From the NCBI RefSeq assembly GCF_055900595.2, contig NZ_CM148325.1: DNA of 64,000 bases; one strand, given 5' to 3'. This document shows, piece after piece, positions 25,609 to 36,208 of the stretch (within the stretch, counting starts at the first letter, position 1; each line of letters starts with the position of its first letter). Below the pieces are notes generated by a model. The model had not been told where the DNA came from, did not search any database, and worked only from the letters and a program-made list of their open reading frames with translations. A program made the position numbers and the translations under genes.

Positions 25609-25685
25609 TGGACCGCCACCGGGGACTCGAACCTCGCACACTCAACTTAAAGGGTTGACGCTCTTTCCTGATGAGCTAGTGGCGG
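25609..25685 (-). tRNA. tRNA, identity uncertain (anticodon loop CCUUUAA)
   Basis: Acceptor CCGCCAC/GTGGCGG, D-arm GCTC..GAGC, anticodon stem TCAAC/GTTGA, T-loop TTCGAGT, 3' CCA encoded; position 33 is C rather than U. Confidence 0.65.
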
Positions 25686-25687
25686 TT

Positions 25688-25762
25688 GGTGGCCCTTGCT
25701 GGATTTGAACCAGCGACCTGGCGATTATGAGTCGCTCGCTCTCACCACTGAGCTAAAGGGCC
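25688..25762 (-). tRNA. ileZ: tRNA-Ile2 (CAU anticodon; ileX/ileZ-like)
   Basis: Reverse complement GGCCCTTTAGCTCAGTGGTGAGAGCGAGCGACTCATAATCGCCAGGTCGCTGGTTCAAATCCAGCAAGGGCCACCA is a near-match to E. coli ileX; T-arm GCTGG-TTCAAAT-CCAGC. Confidence 0.85.
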
Positions 25763-28084: not shown

Positions 28085-28363
28085 TTACCTCCAGATCCGT
28101 TGCTGGTACGTGCGGGATGGACGCGGTGGGCGTTCGGAATAAGGGAGCCTGACGGAGATGATCCAGTACAGGCGGTCAAGGCTTAGGTCTTTCTGAAACT
28201 CGTAACCACGTCTGCGGTAGTTCTGAATTAGCCACTCTGCCTGTTCTTCAGTACATGGATCATGCCGGAACCAGTCAGATTTGAATGCGTGTGAATACTG
28301 CCCGTGCGTGCAGGCAAGAACGGGCGAATTATCAGAATTGTAATATTTTACGTTGCGTGCCAT
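28085..28363 (-). CDS. hypothetical nin-region protein
   Basis: 92-aa ORF; stop abuts the next start (TAACGTG). Confidence 0.5.
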   Translation of the reverse strand: MARNVKYYNSDNSPVLACTHGQYSHAFKSDWFRHDPCTEEQAEWLIQNYRRRGYEFQKDLSLDRLYWIISVRLPYSERPPRPSRTYQQRIWR

Positions 28364-28507: not shown

Positions 28508-28680
28508 TTAGCGCAAGATAAATCCGTCCGTCACTCGGGCATCCACAAAATTAATTAACGCAGCCCCATTTTTTTGCAAACACACAATGCGGTAATGACT
28601 AACAATATTTCCATTTTCAACGCACACAGCATAGAGGCCATCTTCACAAAAAATTTTACGCAGTTCTTCGATGTTCATCA
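28508..28680 (-). CDS. hypothetical small protein (57 aa)
   Basis: Hand-translated: MMNIEELRKIFCEDGLYAVCVENGNIVSHYRIVCLQKNGAALINFVDARVTDGFILR; below the ORF-track size cutoff. Confidence 0.4.
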
Positions 28681-28795
28681 TCAGAATCCTTCCGGATAAT
28701 TAGCTCTCCCCTTTAAGGGACCATCCCTCTTATCCCTGCGCGCTACTTAAGTATTTTTGATTCTATTCCGGCACCGTCCAGAACTTCAAACGTGT

Positions 28796-28897: not shown

Positions 28898-29053
28898 TTA
28901 CTCCTCAGGTTCGTAAGCTGTGAAGACAGCGACCTCCGTCTGGCCGGTTCGGATTCGTACCTCGCAGAGGTCTTTCCTCGTTACCAGTGCCGTCACAATG
29001 ACGGTAATACAGATGACGATCAGGGCGACTAACATCGCCTTTTGCTGCTTCAT
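28898..29053 (-). CDS. hok: Hok/Gef-family type I toxin (in-frame upstream extension to 29110 is mok-like)
   Basis: MKQQKAMLVALIVICITVIVTALVTRKDLCEVRIRTGQTEVAVFTAYEPEE resembles Hok (single TM, conserved C...EVA.F.AYE); inverted repeat GGCGAGGGATTTCTCCCTCGCC in the 3' region. Confidence 0.85.
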   Translation of the reverse strand: MKQQKAMLVALIVICITVIVTALVTRKDLCEVRIRTGQTEVAVFTAYEPEE

Positions 29054-29264
29054 AGCCTGCTTCTCCTTGCCTTTCGGCACGTAAGAGGCTAACCTAGATT
29101 TGCCGTTCATAGATTGAGCCTCAGATTAATGTTAAGCGTCTTGCCGGACGCGTAATGTTAACTGGGGCTTTTCTCTATCTGCCTTTTGGGGTTCATGCCT
29201 GAGACAGATAGCCTCAAGCACCCGCTGCAATTCTACTTAACTCTCCTTTTCCCGCAAACCGTTT

Positions 29265-29348
29265 TTATCCCCAGCGGCAAATCGAATACACCACCAGCGC
29301 CACCGCCATCGCAATTCCTACCGTTGTGAATGCTTCAGGCCAGCTCAT
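29265..29348 (-). CDS. small hydrophobic peptide (27 aa), start overlaps upstream stop (TAATG)
   Basis: Hand-translated: MSWPEAFTTVGIAMAVALVVYSICRWG; single predicted TM helix. Confidence 0.3.
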   Translation of the reverse strand: MSWPEAFTTVGIAMAVALVVYSICRWG

Positions 29349-29608
29349 TATCTCACCTCCAGTCTCCATACCGCCTGACCAATCCGGCTGGCATGGGTAT
29401 CTTTGGATACTGTTCCGTCTTTAGCCATCTCCATAAGAATTTTGCGCAAATCTGCCGAACGCCATTCTTCATCAGGAAATTCCTTCTCCATTGCCAACCG
29501 CAGATTCCAGGTTGCCATCCTGAATGGATATTCCCCGCCGAGAGCTTTATCTTGCAGGGCAGCCCGGGAACGCATCACCTGCAAAACCTTCTCTTTTACA
29601 TTCATCAT
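29348..29608 (-). CDS. hypothetical phage protein
   Basis: 86-aa ORF in a co-directional gene string. Confidence 0.5.
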   Translation of the reverse strand: MMNVKEKVLQVMRSRAALQDKALGGEYPFRMATWNLRLAMEKEFPDEEWRSADLRKILMEMAKDGTVSKDTHASRIGQAVWRLEVR

Positions 29609-30285
29609 TTCGCCTCCTGCGGCGGTTCTGGTATCGGCATCCAGTGGGTTACTTTCGATGCCGGTTCTTCCCCATCGTCAGTAACTGCCCACCATTTGTT
29701 TCTCGACCAATCGTAATACCCTTCGAAGGTATTGCACTCAGTCCAGCCGTAAGACTTACCCCAACACCAAACATACTGTTTATCGTTCGGCATTCGCTCA
29801 CTACAGCTTATCCAACTATCCGGAGTTACCGGAGAGTTGCCACCGGGAATATTTTCCGGAATATTTTGTTGTGCGTTTTGTGGTTGTTCGTATTTACCAT
29901 GAAGCATGGCGGCGCGGCAGGCGTTCCAGCCAGCTGTTCGCCCAAGCGCGTAAACTTCAGATGGCTCAAGATAATCAATGTCATGCCCGTCCTCATCGTC
30001 GTTCTCAGGTAATGCAGCAGGTACTACCGGTACTGGCGGAGCGGCGTAGACTTCAATAATCCCATTATCAATAGGCCATTCTCCATCCTTGAGATAGTCA
30101 CTTGTGCCGTCAACTTGCTGTTCAGCAATGTGGAATGCACCAACTGGCTCTGCCTCAAGCGAGGCCAGCGCAATCCGCGCCAGTTCTTCCGCTTCTTCTG
30201 CTGGCAGTACAACGTTGCTACCAGGTCCGTATGTTTCGCGCCACTGTTTGATTGTCAGCAGTCGCTCTTTGGTTATAGTGGTCAT
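29605..30285 (-). CDS. DUF551-like phage protein
   Basis: 226-aa ORF; Trp/Cys-rich C-terminus ending THWMPIPEPP. Confidence 0.55.
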   Translation of the reverse strand: MTTITKERLLTIKQWRETYGPGSNVVLPAEEAEELARIALASLEAEPVGAFHIAEQQVDGTSDYLKDGEWPIDNGIIEVYAAPPVPVVPAALPENDDEDGHDIDYLEPSEVYALGRTAGWNACRAAMLHGKYEQPQNAQQNIPENIPGGNSPVTPDSWISCSERMPNDKQYVWCWGKSYGWTECNTFEGYYDWSRNKWWAVTDDGEEPASKVTHWMPIPEPPQEAK

Positions 30286-30491
30286 TTATTAATCCTCAAA
30301 ACTTTATGCCCGGGTGCAAAAGCACGCGTTTTGTCTTTGCTTATTCGCCAGCCATCCTTACGCGCCTCTTTTGCACAGCCAGTCCATGACGTACCGATAT
30401 ATTCACCGAAGTCTGGCGTTTGATATTTACCATTTGTACACTGGCGACAATCACAATAGAGATGCATGGTGTAACTTGCGGCAATAGCCAT
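30282..30491 (-). CDS. hypothetical Cys-rich small protein
   Basis: 69-aa ORF; CDCRQCTNGK...C motif. Confidence 0.45.
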   Translation of the reverse strand: MAIAASYTMHLYCDCRQCTNGKYQTPDFGEYIGTSWTGCAKEARKDGWRISKDKTRAFAPGHKVLRINK

Positions 30492-30492
30492 A

Positions 30493-30852
30493 TCAGTCTC
30501 CTTTGATGCCAGTGTTTACAACCTGACAAGCCTCTTTGAGCACCCAGTCAACAGCGTCTTGCCATGCTCCGGTTTCGACTGGCGGATTCTCACGCTTAAC
30601 CTGTTCATAGAAGCGCACTGCTTTAATCAATCCTTCTGGTGTCAGTGGCGCAGGCGGTGCAGTGAATAACGCCTGAATTTCATAGTTCGGCCTGTCGTTG
30701 CAATCCTCTTTTGTCGGTACATATTTCCAGTCACCAACCCACATCTTCTCCTGAAAGTCCGTAACGCCTTTTTTCACGTAGCGATATCGCCATGCAACTG
30801 GTTTTGCCTGCCCTGCCGTTTCATGCCCTTCCTGATAATTAATCTCGCTCAT
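30493..30852 (-). CDS. hypothetical phage protein
   Basis: 119-aa ORF in the co-directional gene string. Confidence 0.5.
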   Translation of the reverse strand: MSEINYQEGHETAGQAKPVAWRYRYVKKGVTDFQEKMWVGDWKYVPTKEDCNDRPNYEIQALFTAPPAPLTPEGLIKAVRFYEQVKRENPPVETGAWQDAVDWVLKEACQVVNTGIKGD

Positions 30853-31017
30853 TCATCACCCCACTCATCACAATATGCTTCGACCGGATTTTTTCCTGCT
30901 TCATAATCATCACGCCATGCTTCAGCATCAGCAGCACTGCCACCACGTAACTCTGCATAGTCCATTAACAGTTCATGCCATTCTTCAAAACTGACGTTGT
31001 ATTTAGTTGAACCAAAA

Positions 31018-31200
31018 TCAGCCATTTTGCTCTTCCTCTTCGTCTTTTATTTCGTGATATGAGTAATTGCAGTAGTTAAAGAAAATTTCTTTTGCTTCGT
31101 CATGAATTTCATCAGGTGTTGCGTCATCGTCCACTTCGAATACATCCTCAAAATCTCCACCAGCTATTCCAGTTTCAATAATTATTTTGAACTTTCGCAT
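31018..31200 (-). CDS. hypothetical acidic small protein
   Basis: 60-aa ORF, highly acidic. Confidence 0.4.
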   Translation of the reverse strand: MRKFKIIIETGIAGGDFEDVFEVDDDATPDEIHDEAKEIFFNYCNYSYHEIKDEEEEQNG

Positions 31201-31293
31201 TTCACTACCGCCCTTTCGGGTGGCCTCCTGCTGTTCTGAAGGTGCAGAAATCCCTCCGGTTAAGGATTAAATTTTTAACAGTGCTAAATTTAA

Positions 31294-31650
31294 TTATTCA
31301 GTTCTGGATTTTGTCACCCTGCGTATCCGCGCTTTCGCGTTACGCTCAATCTGAATTAGCTTTTCTATATTTTTTCGCCTTTCCCGTTCCTCCTGGCGCA
31401 AGAGCCTTACATCATCTGCCAGTCTGGTTTCTCTTTTCGCCACAGAGAGCATCCAGTCAAATGGCTCCACAACTGCACCGCAGATTTTACAGCGGACCTG
31501 ACGCTCTTTTTCGTCAACGCGGACAGAGGCGTGATGACAATATGGTCTTTCCGATGGCTCATAAAGAAAATTAACCTGATTACGTGGGTCATCCTCTTTT
31601 ACCGGAAATAAAACAATATTACTTAACTCATCTTCTGGTTTTATTTCCAT
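31294..31650 (-). CDS. hypothetical protein with putative zinc-binding motif
   Basis: 118-aa ORF; CHH...CKIC; basic C-terminus. Confidence 0.5.
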   Translation of the reverse strand: MEIKPEDELSNIVLFPVKEDDPRNQVNFLYEPSERPYCHHASVRVDEKERQVRCKICGAVVEPFDWMLSVAKRETRLADDVRLLRQEERERRKNIEKLIQIERNAKARIRRVTKSRTE

Positions 31651-31703
31651 GCTCCTCTCCTTTGATGCGAATGCCAGCGATAATTGAAGCCTGATAGCTA
31701 ATT

Positions 31704-32159
31704 TTACTCACAGCCCCCCTGATAATTTCCCTGATAAAACGCCAGCACGCGCTGCATAACTTCGCTCTTCCTGCACTCGCAACAGATTATGTTCTGACGC
31801 CTGTCGTAGCGGCGTATTTCTCCGTCTGGTAATGACCAGATAAGGTCAGGATCAACCACAACCGGTTTTTTCACCTTTTCCCTTGATAGTTTTTTGCGGG
31901 CGTTTTGCCAGTCTTTACGCGCCTGCTCAGACGGGAATAATCCGTAGCCTGAATTGTATACATCACCACTGGCAACCAGCTCTCTGGCAAGAACGCTCAG
32001 CAGATATCTTGTCGCACCTGTTTTCGCTTCCAGTTGTCGTAACGTCTCGCGCCCGCTCTGTCGCACGAGTTCGACAACCTGCCTCTTAATTTTTTCCCGC
32101 TCTTCCTGTGTAAATACTTTTTTCACAAGTCCTCCTGAAAAATCTCCTTCACAATTCAT
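31704..32159 (-). CDS. hypothetical phage protein (ren/nin position)
   Basis: 151-aa ORF directly downstream of the P-like gene. Confidence 0.5.
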   Translation of the reverse strand: MNCEGDFSGGLVKKVFTQEEREKIKRQVVELVRQSGRETLRQLEAKTGATRYLLSVLARELVASGDVYNSGYGLFPSEQARKDWQNARKKLSREKVKKPVVVDPDLIWSLPDGEIRRYDRRQNIICCECRKSEVMQRVLAFYQGNYQGGCE

Positions 32160-32821
32160 ACAAAACCAGCCGCTTTCCGGCGTTCATACTCCTGTTTCAG
32201 CAACTCAATTGGCGTTGGTCCCGACGGGCGTTTGGGGGCAGCCAGTTGTCGCCGGACTGGCGGAACGCTGAGGCCCATACCAACATGCTTTGACCATTTC
32301 GTCAGTTGCCGTTCTGCAAACCGTTTTAACTCCCCTTCGGTCATCTGGCGTTCAATCCCCTTTGAACGCATCTCGAGGCATATGTGATACAGCACAGGCT
32401 GAGACCACGGGTATTTATCGCTTCCGTCGTATCGCCAGGACTCATTGCGCCAGCGTCGGTACTCCTCCATCACAGCCCCCACCGTCAGACCGAATGGATT
32501 GGCCCCGCTTTCCGGAATCAGTGCCACAAACTCAGCCAGGTCAGGAGGCCATGTTTCACCCGCCCGGCAGCGGTCCATGCACTGGCGGCAGACCTGCCGG
32601 ATTTGCTGCTCAGTCATCGCGCCAATCTGTGCAATCCAGAGCTTCGAAGGTGCGGCCCCGTTCTTCCGGGTCCAGCGGTCCGAATAAACCTCCCCCATGA
32701 GTTCCCACAGCTTCCAGGCTGTTTCCGTCGCTGATAAATCCGTTTTCACGTTCCCACTGCTCACGTGCTGCCCGAATTTCCTGAACTGCCCGTGATGCGG
32801 TGCCACCTGGTGCTGCTGCAT
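32156..32821 (-). CDS. P: replication protein P-like (helicase loader)
   Basis: Segments AMTEQQIRQVCRQC...WPPDLAEFVALI and DKYPWSQP align with lambda P; position after O. Confidence 0.75.
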   Translation of the reverse strand: MQQHQVAPHHGQFRKFGQHVSSGNVKTDLSATETAWKLWELMGEVYSDRWTRKNGAAPSKLWIAQIGAMTEQQIRQVCRQCMDRCRAGETWPPDLAEFVALIPESGANPFGLTVGAVMEEYRRWRNESWRYDGSDKYPWSQPVLYHICLEMRSKGIERQMTEGELKRFAERQLTKWSKHVGMGLSVPPVRRQLAAPKRPSGPTPIELLKQEYERRKAAGFV

Positions 32822-33650
32822 GGTTCACCCCCTTGCTGACTGGTTTAACCTGCGCCCTGACGTGATTTACGTGACGGGCGAATTTCTGCTCCCACTGAAC
32901 CTGTGTGAACACTTTCCCCTCCGCCATCCAGTAATCCCGGAAGGCGGCAAGTTCAGCAGGTGTAAATTCCGGTTCCGGCAAAGCCGCTCCCCACAACGCA
33001 GCCCGCCGTCGAAAATCCAGCGACGGATGCCAGCCATCGGTCATCGGAAATTTTCCGATGGGTTCGCTCAGGCCATCCAGGAATACAGGGGGGGCTGCCT
33101 GTAACGACAAAACTTCCTGCTCACTGATCGGAGCACTCTCGCGTGTGTTATGTGTGGGGTTTAGATCTTTGGGTTCCTTTGGGTTCCGTGATCCGTTTTT
33201 GGGTGTCTTTGATGGAAAATTTGGGTGTTTTTGGTTATTTTCCATGCAGCTAAGAGTTCCGTTTTTGGGTCTGTTTTGTGCTGAAACATAACCATTTTCG
33301 GTACTGTTTTTATTAACAGCACCAATTTTACCCTCCTTTAAAGACTCCCGTTTTTGGGTGTATTCAGGCTCTGCAACGCTTTCTTCTACACCGATAAGTC
33401 GGTACACCACGATTTGCTTTGTTCGGCCTTTTCTCTCACCGGTATCAACAATTAACCCAATCTCCATCAGGTGTCGTAAGCTGTCCTGCACAGTCTTTTT
33501 GTTCAGTTCCGTTACTTCTGCCAGTGCAGATACAGACGGGTATGCACACAAATCGGCACCGCACATATCAGCAAGCCAGGTCAATACTGACTTACTGGAT
33601 GAACTGCCGGTTTTCACCTTTTTAGCCCATCGTAGTGCATCGATGCTCAT
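32610..33650 (-). CDS. O: replication initiator O-like protein (origin-binding; iterons inside gene)
   Basis: ORF 32610..33725 with likely start MSIDALRWAKK; N-terminal HTH; internal iteron array; 3' ~210 bp overlaps P in another frame. Confidence 0.75.
   Translation of the reverse strand: MSIDALRWAKKVKTGSSSSKSVLTWLADMCGADLCAYPSVSALAEVTELNKKTVQDSLRHLMEIGLIVDTGERKGRTKQIVVYRLIGVEESVAEPEYTQKRESLKEGKIGAVNKNSTENGYVSAQNRPKNGTLSCMENNQKHPNFPSKTPKNGSRNPKEPKDLNPTHNTRESAPISEQEVLSLQAAPPVFLDGLSEPIGKFPMTDGWHPSLDFRRRAALWGAALPEPEFTPAELAAFRDYWMAEGKVFTQVQWEQKFARHVNHVRAQVKPVSKGVNHAAAPGGTASRAVQEIRAAREQWERENGFISDGNSLEAVGTHGGGLFGPLDPEERGRTFEALDCTDWRDD
33150..33370. repeat. origin-like iteron array plus AT-rich segment inside the O gene
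   Basis: Repeated TTTGGGT(G/T) motifs (tttgggttcc, cgtttttgggtgtc, aatttgggtgtttttgg, cgtttttgggtctg, cccgtttttgggtgt) followed by AT-rich ttttattaacagcaccaatttt. Confidence 0.7.
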
Positions 33651-34173
33651 ACGAACTCCTGGCAGACATTTGTTTATCTGCAAAGTAATATTGATATTGC
33701 TGACGATACGCATGCTTGAAAGCAATAGCTTTTTCTATAAGCTCGTCAGTCTCACGTTCCACAACAGATGGATCCGCAAAAAGCAGCCCGGACTCCACCA
33801 CATCGCCATATTCTTTGTTTAACCCGGCGATCATGTACGTAATGCTTTTTCCGTCAGTAATTTCACAATACAACCTGAAATCGCTGATCCGGATAGCCTC
33901 CATAATTGCCGGAATCAGCGCCGTGAATTTTTCCCGCTTATCCCTGGTGTCGATAGCTTTCCAGCGTTCGAATATCTTCACCCGGTTAACGCCCAGCGCC
34001 CGTTGATCAACCTCGCCATCATTAAACGTGACGCGTTGAACATCGATGTTCGGGCGTTCTTTCAGAGCCCAGAATGCTTCCGTGATTAATATCGTCGCCT
34101 GCTCCTGTGTCATTCCTGGTCGGCATACCCAGGCATCCAGAGCCTCACAAACCTGTTCAGGGGTGATTTTCAT
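33622..34173 (-). CDS. hypothetical early-operon protein at the cII position
   Basis: 183-aa ORF between the cro-like gene and O. Confidence 0.5.
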   Translation of the reverse strand: MKITPEQVCEALDAWVCRPGMTQEQATILITEAFWALKERPNIDVQRVTFNDGEVDQRALGVNRVKIFERWKAIDTRDKREKFTALIPAIMEAIRISDFRLYCEITDGKSITYMIAGLNKEYGDVVESGLLFADPSVVERETDELIEKAIAFKHAYRQQYQYYFADKQMSARSSYEHRCTTMG

Positions 34174-35420: not shown

Positions 35421-36208
35421 CAGACCCCTCAGAGGATACCACCTCGCCTGACGTGGTTAAAAGCAGGCACACAACACGAAAGCGCACGGCGAGGTAGCTG
35501 GTTCATATATAGCCTGTCGTTAAATTTTCGTCGACCGTGCGCTTCCGGTTGTGGCACTCCGCGAAATGGCGCGGCGGTAAGCATGGCGGGGTTCCCTTCC
35601 CCTTGAGGACACCGGGTTGTCAGGTTGACCATGCGCCTGAGTGACAACCCCGCTGCAACGCCCTCTGTTATCAATTTTCTGGTGACGTTTGGCGGTATCA
35701 GTTTTACTCCGTGACTGCTCTGCCGCCCTTTTTAAAGTGAATTTTGTGATGTGGTGAATGCGGCTCAGCGCACGCGGAACAGTTAAAACCAAAAACAGAG
35801 TTATGGGTGGATTCTCTGTATCCGGCGTTAATTGTTAACTGGTTAACGTCACCTGGAGGCACCTGGCACCGCATCAACAAAGTTCACTTCGGTGATGAAA
35901 GGTAAGAGAAAATGTTGAATGTAGCTATTGAAAACCAGTACGGGTGGAATTATAGTGCACCTGCACCTCATAAAACGGGTGCCGGGCGTGGAAACCCGAA
36001 AGTTACTCGAGCGCATAACCGCGCCGAAGCGGTTTTTTTATGCGTAATGCACAGCCACATTCAGATAATGGTGGGGCGTGCAGGGCAGCTGCAAGGCTGG
36101 CCGGGTTCTCGAGTGACCGGTATTTCCACCCCTGTACGTCTCGCCACCCTTATGGTCGTGGAAAGCCTCGGTGGTGAGTTAATTAACTTAACACTTGAGG
36201 ATGCCATC

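What the first reader, a model, noticed from the sequence alone, without database searches (positions are those of the whole stretch)
29348..32159. Block of eight small uncharacterised genes replacing the nin/ren region
Between P and the hok locus lie eight co-directional, tightly packed ORFs of 60-226 aa, several with overlapping stop/start codons. Apart from one DUF551-like protein and two with Cys-rich putative zinc motifs I recognise none of them. Early-operon moron blocks like this often hold anti-defence or host-takeover functions.
Basis: inference. Interest (0 to 1): 0.3.

Follow-up and report, generated by a model that had tools for sequence, protein, structure and literature searches.

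The report
Lambdoid prophage early accessory gene cassettes
The eight small genes are real, but they are an ordinary, widely shared set of swappable accessory genes in the early operon of an E. coli lambda-like prophage; the first is a distant relative of lambda's ren gene, and the functions of the rest are still untested.

Summary
Eight co-directional genes lie on the minus strand between replication gene P and the hok/sok locus. They are 94.7% coding, four junctions overlap by 4-8 nt, and no promoter- or terminator-like site lies among them. All eight exact proteins are already in public databases on 25 to over 1000 contigs. All eight hit PHROG families and three hit Pfam DUFs (DUF977, DUF7167, DUF551). 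dN/dS of about 0.02-0.5 shows purifying selection on g1-g6.

The first gene is a remote homologue of lambda Ren (hhalign 95%, E 2e-8), so ren is retained, not replaced. The genes do not look like self-contained morons; they look like operon-embedded cassettes. Homology breakpoints with relatives fall at gene boundaries. The same cassettes (g2, g3, g4, g8) also sit in the leftward exo-xis region of Stx phages. No gene hits a defence model (PADLOC), NCBIfam or a solved structure, and no anti-defence library was available to test against.

g2 is a CHCC zinc ribbon followed by a 55-residue helix. g4 has homologues at 52-59% identity in virulent Ackermannviridae.

Side observation: the 93-nt g2-g3 spacer is a portable junction sequence found in 29% of complete E. 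coli genomes.

Overall this is ordinary and of low interest.

The parts
31704..32126 (-). g1: DUF977 / Ren-like protein. 140 aa from GTG 32126; the alternative 151-aa ORF starts at ATG 32159 and overlaps the P stop codon. It has an N-terminal winged-helix region and a conserved C-terminal motif, PYDRxxNxICxECRNSEVMQRVLAFY.
   Evidence: Pfam DUF977 E 3.9e-30. phrog_142 'Ren-like exclusion protein' E 2.7e-45. hhalign of the DUF977 alignment against lambda Ren: 95.3%, E 2.2e-8. BLASTP of the C-terminal motif against Ren: 55% identity. Start-site evidence. dN/dS 0.07-0.12.
31294..31650 (-). g2: 118-aa basic protein with a CHCC zinc ribbon (C38, H40, C54, C57) followed by a single helix of about 55 residues. 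The helix ends in the near-invariant sequence NIEKLIQIERNAKARIRR.
   Evidence: phrog_1621 E 1.4e-55. The family spans Enterobacterales and keeps the invariant ligands. AF2 model has pLDDT 80, with 94-97 on the helix. The best fold match is the TFIIB N-terminal zinc ribbon, which is not significant (E 0.27). Distant paralogues keep the motifs. dN/dS 0-0.13.
31201..31293 (-). g2-g3 spacer, a portable intergenic junction sequence. In order it contains an AU-rich stretch with stop codons in all three frames, hairpin 1, AGGAGG, hairpin 2 with a GAAA loop, and then the start codon 5-10 nt further on.
   Evidence: It recurs at other gene junctions in ArgO145 and Rac-SA53. Its 20-mer core occurs in at least 120 IMG/VR contigs, with 7 downstream and 8 upstream gene clusters. 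It is present in 1583 of 5426 complete E. coli genomes and is never annotated. There is no Rfam match. Covariation is not significant.
31018..31200 (-). g3: 60-aa acidic protein (pI 4.06) of family DUF7167.
   Evidence: Pfam DUF7167 E 2.4e-14. phrog_1997 E 2e-30. Present next to g4 in all seven related loci examined, including the ArgO145 exo-xis region. Weak 40%-identity hits in large Enterococcus and Pseudomonas phages. dN/dS 0.02-0.2.
30849..31025 (-). g4: 58-aa acidic protein (pI 4.05) with the conserved motif FxEWH...GSAADAxAWRxDYxxGKxPxxAxxDEWG.
   Evidence: phrog_519 E 2.4e-22, matching the C-terminal part of that profile. Found in 201 phage records, 182 of them below 60% identity; the listed rows of that group are mostly 52-59% identical and from virulent Ackermannviridae (Vi01_151c, CBA120 orf183, Menlow gp173). 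dN/dS 0.03-0.46.
30493..30852 (-). g5: 119-aa protein. Its first 16 codons are shared with the Ea22-like gene of phage ArgO145, and its last 35 residues match part of the PHROG that holds lambda Ea22.
   Evidence: phrog_660 E 4.7e-45; phrog_250 (lambda Ea22's PHROG) E 1.2e-10 for residues 84-118. The blastn breakpoint at 30804-30832 lies inside the 5' end of g5. No Pfam hit. dN/dS 0.12-0.53.
30282..30491 (-). g6: 69-aa basic protein with an invariant YCDCxxC and a mostly conserved APGHK, a possible CCCH metal site.
   Evidence: phrog_926 E 6.6e-37. The family is narrow: 47 clusters from Enterobacteriaceae, Kosakonia and Pantoea. The AF2 model is only moderately confident (pLDDT 69, alpha/beta). 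No fold match and no PDB sequence match.
29605..30285 (-). g7: 226-aa acidic protein with a variable N-terminal module and a C-terminal DUF551 domain (residues 157-223).
   Evidence: Pfam DUF551 E 1.1e-15, 58.6 bits against a cut-off of 22. phrog_60 E 1.6e-60. No Pfam Ead_Ea22 hit. Identical protein on 372 contigs. Relatives in the same slot are only 33-37% identical.
29348..29608 (-). g8: 86-aa basic protein, named 'eaa protein' in public annotation.
   Evidence: phrog_2814 E 2.2e-52. The name comes from NCBI and UniRef. Found in 102 phage records, mostly near the left (int-proximal) end of Stx2a phages, and also in P1/SJ46-type phages. No Pfam domain.
32156..32617 (-). Upstream flank: replication protein P. 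These are the PGAP-equivalent coordinates; a longer ORF runs to 32821.
   Evidence: Pfam Phage_lambda_P E 2.1e-14. PGAP annotation of the 99.4% identical locus.
28898..29223 (-). Downstream flank: the hokD/mok/sok type I toxin-antitoxin locus.
   Evidence: Rfam sok 112 bits at 29048-29223. hokD annotated in the near-identical locus. A strong terminator-like hairpin lies at 28829-28812.

Best explanation
The block is the nin-type delayed-early accessory segment of a Rac/Qin-like lambdoid prophage of E. coli.

Shown:
- The eight genes are real and, for g1-g6, under purifying selection.
- They lie co-directionally between P and hok/Q, with no promoter-like or terminator-like signals among them.
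- Four junctions overlap by 4-8 nt.
- The segment is a string of individually exchangeable cassettes. Homology with relatives breaks at gene boundaries, and g2, g3, g4 and g8 also occur in the leftward exo-xis region of Stx phages.
- g1 is a remote homologue of lambda Ren.
- g3 is DUF7167 and g7 carries DUF551.
- g2 has a conserved CHCC motif and is predicted to be a zinc ribbon followed by a long helix.
- g4 is also conserved in virulent Ackermannviridae.

Inferred:
- The genes are transcribed only on lytic development, as part of the rightward early operon (cro-like, ydaT, O-like, P, g1-g8, hok region, rusA, Q).
- They are translated partly by coupling.
- They are dispensable for plaque formation, as lambda's ren and nin genes are.
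- They act as small binders or regulators of host or phage macromolecules early in infection. g1 would be a replication-associated wHTH factor that guards against Rex-type exclusion. The others would tune host physiology or the lysis-lysogeny outcome, as exo-xis genes do.
For: - ORF layout and packing.
- The same eight genes are annotated in a 99.4% identical E. coli GF4 prophage, flanked by Cro/CI, YdaT, a DnaT-like O and P upstream, and by hokD, rem, DUF968, RusA and Q downstream.
- No promoter-like site on the minus strand inside the block and no terminator before 28829.
- PHROG and Pfam assignments.
- Exact proteins on 25 to over 1000 contigs.
- dN/dS well below 1 for g1-g6.
- Breakpoints at about 29348-29370, 30266-30282, 30804-30832, 31250-31301, 31678-31715 and 32130-32141.
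- Variable inserts in the same slot in relatives (DUF1627, DUF4406, SAM methyltransferase, DUF4014, Ea22-like).
- Cassettes in the ArgO145 exo-xis region.
- Ren homology.
- Lambda's ren and nin genes are delayed-early, non-essential and polar on Q: PMC10695390.
- Exo-xis genes affect lysogenisation and induction: PMC10834534, and abstracts listed.
Against: - No expression data were examined, so co-transcription from pR is inferred from layout and a crude consensus scan.
- No member of any of the eight families has a tested function. Lambda Ren is the only characterised relative, and it is remote (25% identity).
- Fold searches for g2 and g6 gave no significant match. The other six proteins were not modelled.
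- g7 and g8 had no divergent orthologues among the fetched loci, so selection on them was not measured.
- The wHTH assignment for g8 is a guess from sequence pattern only.
Confidence: 0.75

Rival explanations
1. Anti-defence island: several of the eight proteins are dedicated inhibitors of host anti-phage systems, made early to disarm immunity.
For: - They are early-operon, small, variable, cassette-like genes.
- g1 is homologous to Ren, whose known phenotype is escape from RexAB exclusion (the phenotype is from my own knowledge).
- g3, g4 and g7 are strongly acidic (pI 4.06, 4.05 and 4.35), as many DNA-mimic or protein-mimic inhibitors are.
- The g4 family is shared with virulent Ackermannviridae, which argues for a host-directed rather than lysogeny-specific role.
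Against: - No similarity to any characterised inhibitor was found, but no anti-defence library was available.
- PADLOC (defence systems only) and NCBIfam gave nothing.
- An apparent link to a retron 'blocker' (YdaW) collapsed, because K-12 YdaW is DUF1627, not DUF977.
- Acidity and small size are weak predictors.
Confidence: 0.2
2. Developmental modulators of the exo-xis type: the proteins bias the lysis-lysogeny decision, prophage induction or host cell cycle, as reported for Ea22, Orf63, Orf61, Orf60a, Ea8.5 and Orf73 of lambda and Stx phages.
For: - g2, g3, g4 and g8 are found at high identity inside the exo-xis region of Stx phages, next to Ea22-like genes.
- g5 shares its first 16 codons with an Ea22-like gene and its last 35 residues with lambda Ea22's PHROG.
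- DUF551 is the C-terminal domain of Ea22 variant V2 (PMC10834534).
- The DUF551 protein YfdS is part of a K-12 gene set that inhibits replication initiation when over-supplied (PMC4776307).
Against: - None of the eight matches lambda Ea22, Ea8.5, Orf61, Orf63 or Orf60a by BLASTP.
- g7 does not hit Pfam Ead_Ea22.
- g4's presence in strictly virulent phages does not fit a lysogeny-specific role.
- No phenotype data exist for these families.
Confidence: 0.3
3. Prophage-expressed morons or defence genes that benefit the lysogen, such as superinfection exclusion.
For: The prophage carries other lysogen-active elements nearby: hok/sok, and DicF, isrK and C4 RNAs. phrog_142 carries the label 'exclusion protein'.
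Against: - No promoter-like site on the coding strand and no terminator inside the block.
- Tight coupling to the lytic replication genes.
- No PADLOC hit.
- Ren counters exclusion rather than causing it (own knowledge).
Confidence: 0.05
4. Decaying, functionless ORFs of a cryptic prophage.
For: The neighbouring rem gene is a pseudogene in the near-identical locus. g2 is disrupted in one relative, L002.
Against: - dN/dS of 0.02-0.5 for g1-g6.
- Intact reading frames conserved across genera, with invariant metal ligands.
- Identical proteins on hundreds of contigs.
Confidence: 0.03

Closest known systems
Lambda ren-nin region (ren, ninB-ninI) of the pR operon
   Same: Same position between the replication genes and Q. 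Same 'chain of interlinked genes' layout with overlapping stop and start codons. The lambda genes are delayed-early and non-essential (PMC10695390). The first gene is a Ren homologue.
   Different: None of g2-g8 is similar to any lambda Nin protein. A hok/sok locus is inserted before the DUF968-RusA-Q part. g1 is about 45 residues longer than Ren and belongs to Pfam DUF977, which lambda Ren does not hit.
Exo-xis (ea) region of lambda and Stx phages (Ea22, Ea8.5, Orf60a/61/63/73)
   Same: The g2, g3, g4 and g8 cassettes occur there at 90-98% identity. The two regions also share DUF551 and Ea22 N-terminal segments. Both hold small early genes of mostly unknown mechanism.
   Different: Different operon (pL versus pR). 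No homology to the characterised lambda exo-xis proteins.
Rac-type prophage lygF (DUF977) locus, e.g. phage Rac-SA53 and Rac of E. coli 442/2
   Same: Same replication module (ydaS/T/U/V-like) followed by DUF977, with 84-92% identical g1.
   Different: Those phages carry an extra DUF1627 gene (ydaW) before DUF977, and a different set of downstream cassettes.
Hairpin-bridged ribosome-binding sites of phage T4 genes 38 and 25 (recalled from memory; a lead only)
   Same: In the g2-g3 linker a stable hairpin lies between a strong AGGAGG and the start codon, which follows 5-10 nt after the hairpin.
   Different: Not tested. Covariation is not significant. The element is also a recombination joint shared by many different gene pairs.

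Membership tests
Lambda Ren / PHROG 142 'Ren-like exclusion protein' (g1) | Sequence homology to lambda Ren | tested here: met
   Both g1 and Ren hit phrog_142 (E 2.7e-45 and 1.6e-41). hhalign of the DUF977 profile against Ren gives 95.3%, E 2.2e-8 over 87 columns. The C-terminal motif NxxxxECRxSxxMxRVLAxY is shared.
Lambda Ren / PHROG 142 'Ren-like exclusion protein' (g1) | Gene sits immediately downstream of replication gene P in the pR operon | tested here: met
   g1 follows P with a 29-nt gap, or a 4-nt overlap for the longer ORF. Lambda ren overlaps P by 4 nt.
Lambda Ren / PHROG 142 'Ren-like exclusion protein' (g1) | Confers resistance of the phage to RexAB exclusion | not testable with these tools
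   This needs a plating assay of ren-minus lambda complemented with g1 on rex+ lysogens.
Pfam DUF977 (g1) | Score above the Pfam gathering cut-off | tested here: met
   105.1 bits against a cut-off of 22.1.
Pfam DUF551 (g7) | Score above the Pfam gathering cut-off | tested here: met
   58.6 bits against a cut-off of 22, residues 157-223.
Pfam DUF7167 (g3) | Score above the Pfam gathering cut-off | tested here: met
   53.6 bits against a cut-off of 24.4.
Ead/Ea22 family, Pfam PF13935 (g5, g7) | Match to the Ead_Ea22 N-terminal/coiled-coil profile | tested here: not met
   No PF13935 hit at E<=1 for g5 or g7, whereas lambda Ea22 scores E 1.1e-28. g5 shares only its first 16 codons and a 35-residue C-terminal stretch with phrog_250.
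Lambda Nin proteins (NinB-NinI) | Sequence similarity to any lambda Nin protein | tested here: not met
   BLASTP of g1-g8 against all lambda early proteins gave only the g1-Ren match. No Nin Pfam families were hit.
Moron (autonomous unit inside a phage operon) | Own promoter and terminator flanking the gene(s) | tested here: not met
   No sigma-70-like site on the minus strand within 29348-32159 and no terminator-like site before 28829. This was a consensus scan only, so weak signals could be missed.
Known anti-phage defence systems (PADLOC) | Match to any defence-system protein model | tested here: not met
   No family at E<=0.1 for any of the eight proteins.
Known anti-defence proteins (Acr, Ocr, Ard, Gad, Tad and others) | Homology to a characterised inhibitor | not testable with these tools
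   No anti-defence profile library is offered. Pfam, PHROG and PDB searches returned no such name.
TraR/DksA-like zinc-finger RNAP binders, e.g. lambda Orf73 (considered for g2) | zf-dskA_traR domain with a coiled coil N-terminal to a C4 finger | tested here: not met
   No such Pfam hit. g2 has CHCC ligands, and its zinc ribbon lies N-terminal to a single long helix. Fold search found no DksA or TraR match.

The most novel reading that the evidence does not exclude
At least one of g2-g8 founds an unrecognised family of host-takeover or anti-defence proteins. The best candidates are g4, a 58-aa acidic protein conserved in both lambdoid prophages and virulent Ackermannviridae, and g2, a CHCC zinc ribbon with a near-invariant basic helix. 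In this reading the block is a true cassette array whose standardised 93-nt junction sequence (three-frame stop, hairpins and RBS) both drives cassette exchange and sets translation of the incoming gene.
Probability: 0.3. Interest if true: 0.5.

Novelty: already known. Interest (0 to 1): 0.2.

Why it matters
As it stands, very little. The region is a routine example of lambdoid mosaicism built from catalogued 'known unknown' families, and identical proteins are annotated in hundreds of E. coli genomes.

Its practical value is as a short, well-delimited list of abundant early phage genes for functional screens:
- a Ren homologue;
- a zinc-ribbon-plus-helix protein spread across Enterobacterales;
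- a tiny acidic protein shared by temperate and virulent phages.

It also yields a conserved, unannotated junction sequence present in about 29% of complete E. coli genomes, which may explain how such cassettes are swapped and expressed.

Tried and rejected
1. Retron-blocker link. A screen reported Rac ydaW as a retron-Sen2 toxin blocker, and I first took YdaW to be DUF977. K-12 YdaW is DUF1627 plus a wHTH, and the DUF977 gene is the neighbouring lygF, so I dropped the link.
2. g7 as an Ea22-family protein. Some phage records annotate it that way, but there is no Pfam Ead_Ea22 hit.
3. g5 and the N-terminus of g7 as paralogues, because both hit phrog_660. They show no pairwise similarity, so that PHROG is composite.
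4. PDB sequence searches for all eight proteins gave nothing credible. The TPR hit for g8 is a sum of four non-significant repeats.
5. Fold searches found no significant match: g2 against PDB and BFVD, g6 against PDB. The afdb50 library was unavailable. The g6 model has only pLDDT 69.
6. NCBIfam and PADLOC gave no hits.
7. A literature search by RefSeq protein accession found nothing.
8. K-12 homologues that might carry phenotype data: none by tblastn in part of Rac, Qin, CPS-53 or e14. g7 against YfdS is only marginal (E 0.017).
9. Plus-strand ORFs: five of six have no PHROG hit. The sixth (29524-30012) hits phrog_23547 and is antisense to g7, so it is probably a shadow ORF.
10. The g2-g3 spacer as a structured RNA. 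The single-sequence fold z-score is -0.48, there is no Rfam hit, and covariation over 36 variants is not above shuffles. The structure is unproven.
11. g3 and g4 as an obligate pair. They are adjacent in all seven related loci examined, but the Ackermannviridae g4 homologues have no g3 neighbour.


Full report
**Observation**

The interval 29348-32159 is filled by eight ORFs on the minus strand:

| Gene | Coordinates | Length |
|---|---|---|
| g1 | 31704-32159 | 151-aa ORF |
| g2 | 31294-31650 | 118 aa |
| g3 | 31018-31200 | 60 aa |
| g4 | 30849-31025 | 58 aa |
| g5 | 30493-30852 | 119 aa |
| g6 | 30282-30491 | 69 aa |
| g7 | 29605-30285 | 226 aa |
| g8 | 29348-29608 | 86 aa |

Four internal junctions overlap: g3/g4 by 8 nt, and g4/g5, g6/g7 and g7/g8 by 4 nt each. 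g5-g6 is separated by 1 nt. The only real spacers are 53 nt (g1-g2) and 93 nt (g2-g3).

The ATG at 32159 overlaps the P stop codon, but the conserved start of g1 is almost certainly the GTG at 32126. That GTG is preceded by AGGAGG. Homologues align from residue 12/13. DNA homology with relatives that have a different upstream gene begins at about 32135-32141.

The genes are not chance ORFs:
- All eight exact protein sequences are in the public collection, on 25 to over 1000 contigs.
- All eight hit PHROG families at E 2e-22 to 2e-60.
- PGAP annotates the same eight genes in a 99.4% identical locus of E. coli GF4.
- Pairwise dN/dS against relatives is 0.02-0.5, mostly about 0.1, for g1-g6.

Plus-strand ORFs have no family support. 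The one exception is a probable shadow ORF antisense to g7.

**Context**

The near-identical GF4 locus and the family scans show a Rac/Qin-like lambdoid prophage. The gene order is:
- a cI-like repressor on the plus strand;
- on the minus strand, Cro/CI, a YdaT-family protein, a DnaT-like O analogue and P;
- the eight genes;
- hokD/sok (Rfam sok at 29048-29223), rem, DUF968 (YdfU), RusA and Q.

A consensus scan finds no promoter-like site on the minus strand inside the block, and no terminator-like site until 28829-28812, after hok. The layout is that of lambda's ren-nin segment. That segment is a chain of interlinked, delayed-early, non-essential genes whose knock-down is polar on Q (PMC10695390).

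**What the genes are**

*g1* is Pfam DUF977 (E 3.9e-30) and PHROG 142 'Ren-like exclusion protein'. Lambda Ren hits the same PHROG (E 1.6e-41) but not DUF977. An alignment of diverse DUF977 proteins shows two features: an N-terminal winged-helix-like region, and a near-invariant C-terminal motif, PYDRxxNxICxECRNSEVMQRVLAFY. Profile comparison with lambda Ren gives 95.3% probability, E 2.2e-8, over 87 columns covering both parts. So ren is retained in divergent form, at the same place after P.

Public phage records call this gene lygF or 'Ren-like exclusion protein'. K-12 YdaW, which a screen reported as a retron-toxin blocker, is a different, DUF1627 protein. That result therefore does not transfer to g1.

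*g2* belongs to a family found across Enterobacterales. C38, H40, C54, C57 and the C-terminal NIEKLIQIERNAKARIRR are invariant or nearly so. AlphaFold (pLDDT 80) predicts a small zinc ribbon followed by one 55-residue helix at pLDDT 94-97. Foldseek finds only a non-significant TFIIB-type ribbon match (E 0.27) and nothing in BFVD. Distant paralogues (27-29% identity) that keep all these motifs occupy the g8 slot in other prophages.

*g3* is DUF7167 and is acidic.

*g4* is also acidic. It hits 201 phage records by tblastn, of which 182 are below 60% identity. The listed rows of that group are mostly 52-59% identical homologues in virulent Ackermannviridae such as Vi01, CBA120 and Menlow, in a cluster of small genes next to the major capsid gene.

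*g5* has no Pfam domain. Its first 16 codons are shared with the Ea22-like gene of phage ArgO145, and its last 35 residues match the PHROG that holds lambda Ea22.

*g6* has an invariant YCDCxxC in a narrow family. Its model is of moderate confidence (pLDDT 69) and has no fold match.

*g7* carries a C-terminal DUF551 but does not hit Ead_Ea22.

*g8* is the 'eaa protein' of public annotation. It occurs in 102 phage records, mostly at the int-proximal end of Stx2a phages.

None of the eight hits NCBIfam, PADLOC or any solved structure by sequence. None of g2-g8 resembles any lambda early protein.

**Mosaic nature**

Only 2 of 5426 complete E. coli genomes carry the whole arrangement, but 5180 carry pieces of the 3.9-kb query, which also included P and hok.

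In four related prophages the slot between the replication genes and hokD holds DUF977 and the g3-g4-g5-g6 core. It also holds different extras: DUF1627, DUF4406, a SAM methyltransferase, DUF4014 and Ea22-like fragments. Homology breakpoints fall at gene boundaries.

In Stx phage ArgO145, g2, g3 and g4 lie in the leftward exo-xis region next to Ea22-like genes. The cassette pool is therefore shared between the two early operons. This is classical lambdoid mosaicism, not a special island.

**How it most likely works**

Shown: the genes are real and (g1-g6) selected, embedded in the operon, and exchangeable; g1 is homologous to Ren.

Inferred: they are expressed only in lytic development from pR, partly by translational coupling. 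Like lambda's ren and nin genes, they are dispensable. They act as small binders or regulators of host or phage macromolecules.

For g1 the best guess is a replication-associated wHTH protein that prevents Rex-type exclusion. Lambda Ren interacts with Rex proteins in a two-hybrid assay and is thought to be replication-linked (bioRxiv 10.1101/2021.04.19.439022). The ren phenotype itself comes from my own knowledge of Toothman and Herskowitz 1980.

For the rest there are two overlapping possibilities, and the evidence does not decide between them:
- Exo-xis-type tuning of development, confidence about 0.3.
- Anti-defence or host takeover, confidence about 0.2.

A role as lysogen-expressed morons or as junk is unlikely.

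**Side observation**

The 93-nt g2-g3 spacer (31201-31293) is a portable junction sequence. It recurs between other gene pairs in ArgO145 and Rac-SA53.

- *Abundance.* Its 20-mer core is in at least 120 IMG/VR contigs. The spacer itself is in 1583 of 5426 complete E. coli genomes, in up to 5 copies, and is never annotated.
- *Layout.* It starts with stop codons in all three frames (CTGAATAATTAAATTTAG). Two hairpins follow, with AGGAGG between them; the second hairpin is CCGCCC-GAAA-GGGCGG. A start codon lies 5-10 nt after the second hairpin.
- *Flanking genes.* The upstream genes fall into 8 clusters and the downstream genes into 7.
- *Structure.* Some variants carry compensatory changes, but covariation over 36 distinct variants is not above the shuffled controls. 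The single-sequence fold is unremarkable, and there is no Rfam match.
- *Reading.* It looks like a recombination joint that also supplies the stop signal and the ribosome-binding site for whichever cassettes it joins. A hairpin-bridged RBS is possible but untested.

**Verdict**

The block is an ordinary, already catalogued lambdoid accessory-cassette segment. Its first gene is a Ren homologue, and the functions of the others remain unknown.

Interest is 0.2. The most novel reading still open is that g4 or g2 founds a new host-directed family and that the junction sequence is functional. I give that a probability of about 0.3 and moderate interest if true.

Noticed in passing
window 31201-31293 (minus strand); also L008 5006-5103, L009 2978-3065, L016-L135: The g2-g3 spacer is a conserved portable junction sequence: three-frame stop, hairpin, AGGAGG, GAAA-loop hairpin, then a start codon 5-10 nt later. 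It joins at least 8 different upstream and 7 different downstream gene clusters. It is present in at least 120 IMG/VR contigs and in 1583 of 5426 complete E. coli genomes, is never annotated, and has no Rfam match. Covariation is not significant.
   Followed up: partly
window 30849-31025; L011 3001-3195 (Vi01_151c); L012 2974-3180 (Menlow gp173): The 58-aa acidic protein g4 has 52-59% identical homologues in many virulent Ackermannviridae genomes (Salmonella, Klebsiella, E. coli, Serratia, Shigella phages), just downstream of the major capsid gene. Its family therefore crosses the temperate/virulent divide.
   Followed up: partly
L007 1823-2218 and L002 3345-3740 (the slot of g8 in other prophages); VT2-Sakai/933W-type Stx phages: Distant paralogues of g2 (27-29% identity) keep the CHCC ligands, the PF motif and the KL..E.NAK.R.R helix. 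This suggests a wider superfamily of zinc-ribbon-plus-helix proteins in lambdoid accessory regions.
   Followed up: partly
window 35677-35728, 35963-36039, 36064-36151 (plus strand): Rfam finds DicF, isrK and C4 antisense RNAs in the leftward early region. These are a Qin-like dicF locus and a P1/P7-type C4/isrK antirepressor-control module.
   Followed up: no
window 25609-25762 (minus strand): Two tRNA genes lie just downstream of the Q antiterminator gene: tRNA-Lys(UUU) and a CAT-anticodon tRNA. ARAGORN calls the second Met; PGAP calls it Ile in the near-identical genome.
   Followed up: no
window 28508-28681 and 28085-28363 (minus strand): The rem homologue between hok and DUF968 is truncated, and it is annotated as a pseudogene with an internal stop in the 99.4% identical GF4 locus. 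The adjacent 92-aa ORF matches phrog_1212, of unknown function.
   Followed up: no
window 29524-30012 (plus strand): A 162-aa ORF antisense to g7 hits phrog_23547 (E 2.9e-9). It is most likely a shadow ORF that has been mis-called in some phage genomes.
   Followed up: no
window 32610-33725 / 32156-32821 (minus strand): The longest ORFs for the O-like and P genes overlap by about 200 nt. PGAP in the near-identical genome uses shorter forms (P = 153 aa). The mechanical ORF list therefore overstates the length of both genes.
   Followed up: no
L010 4753-5313 (E. coli K-12 ydaW): K-12 YdaW is a DUF1627 protein with an N-terminal wHTH, not DUF977. Some phage records label DUF977 proteins 'YdaW family', which invites wrong transfer of the published retron-blocker phenotype.
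   Followed up: yes
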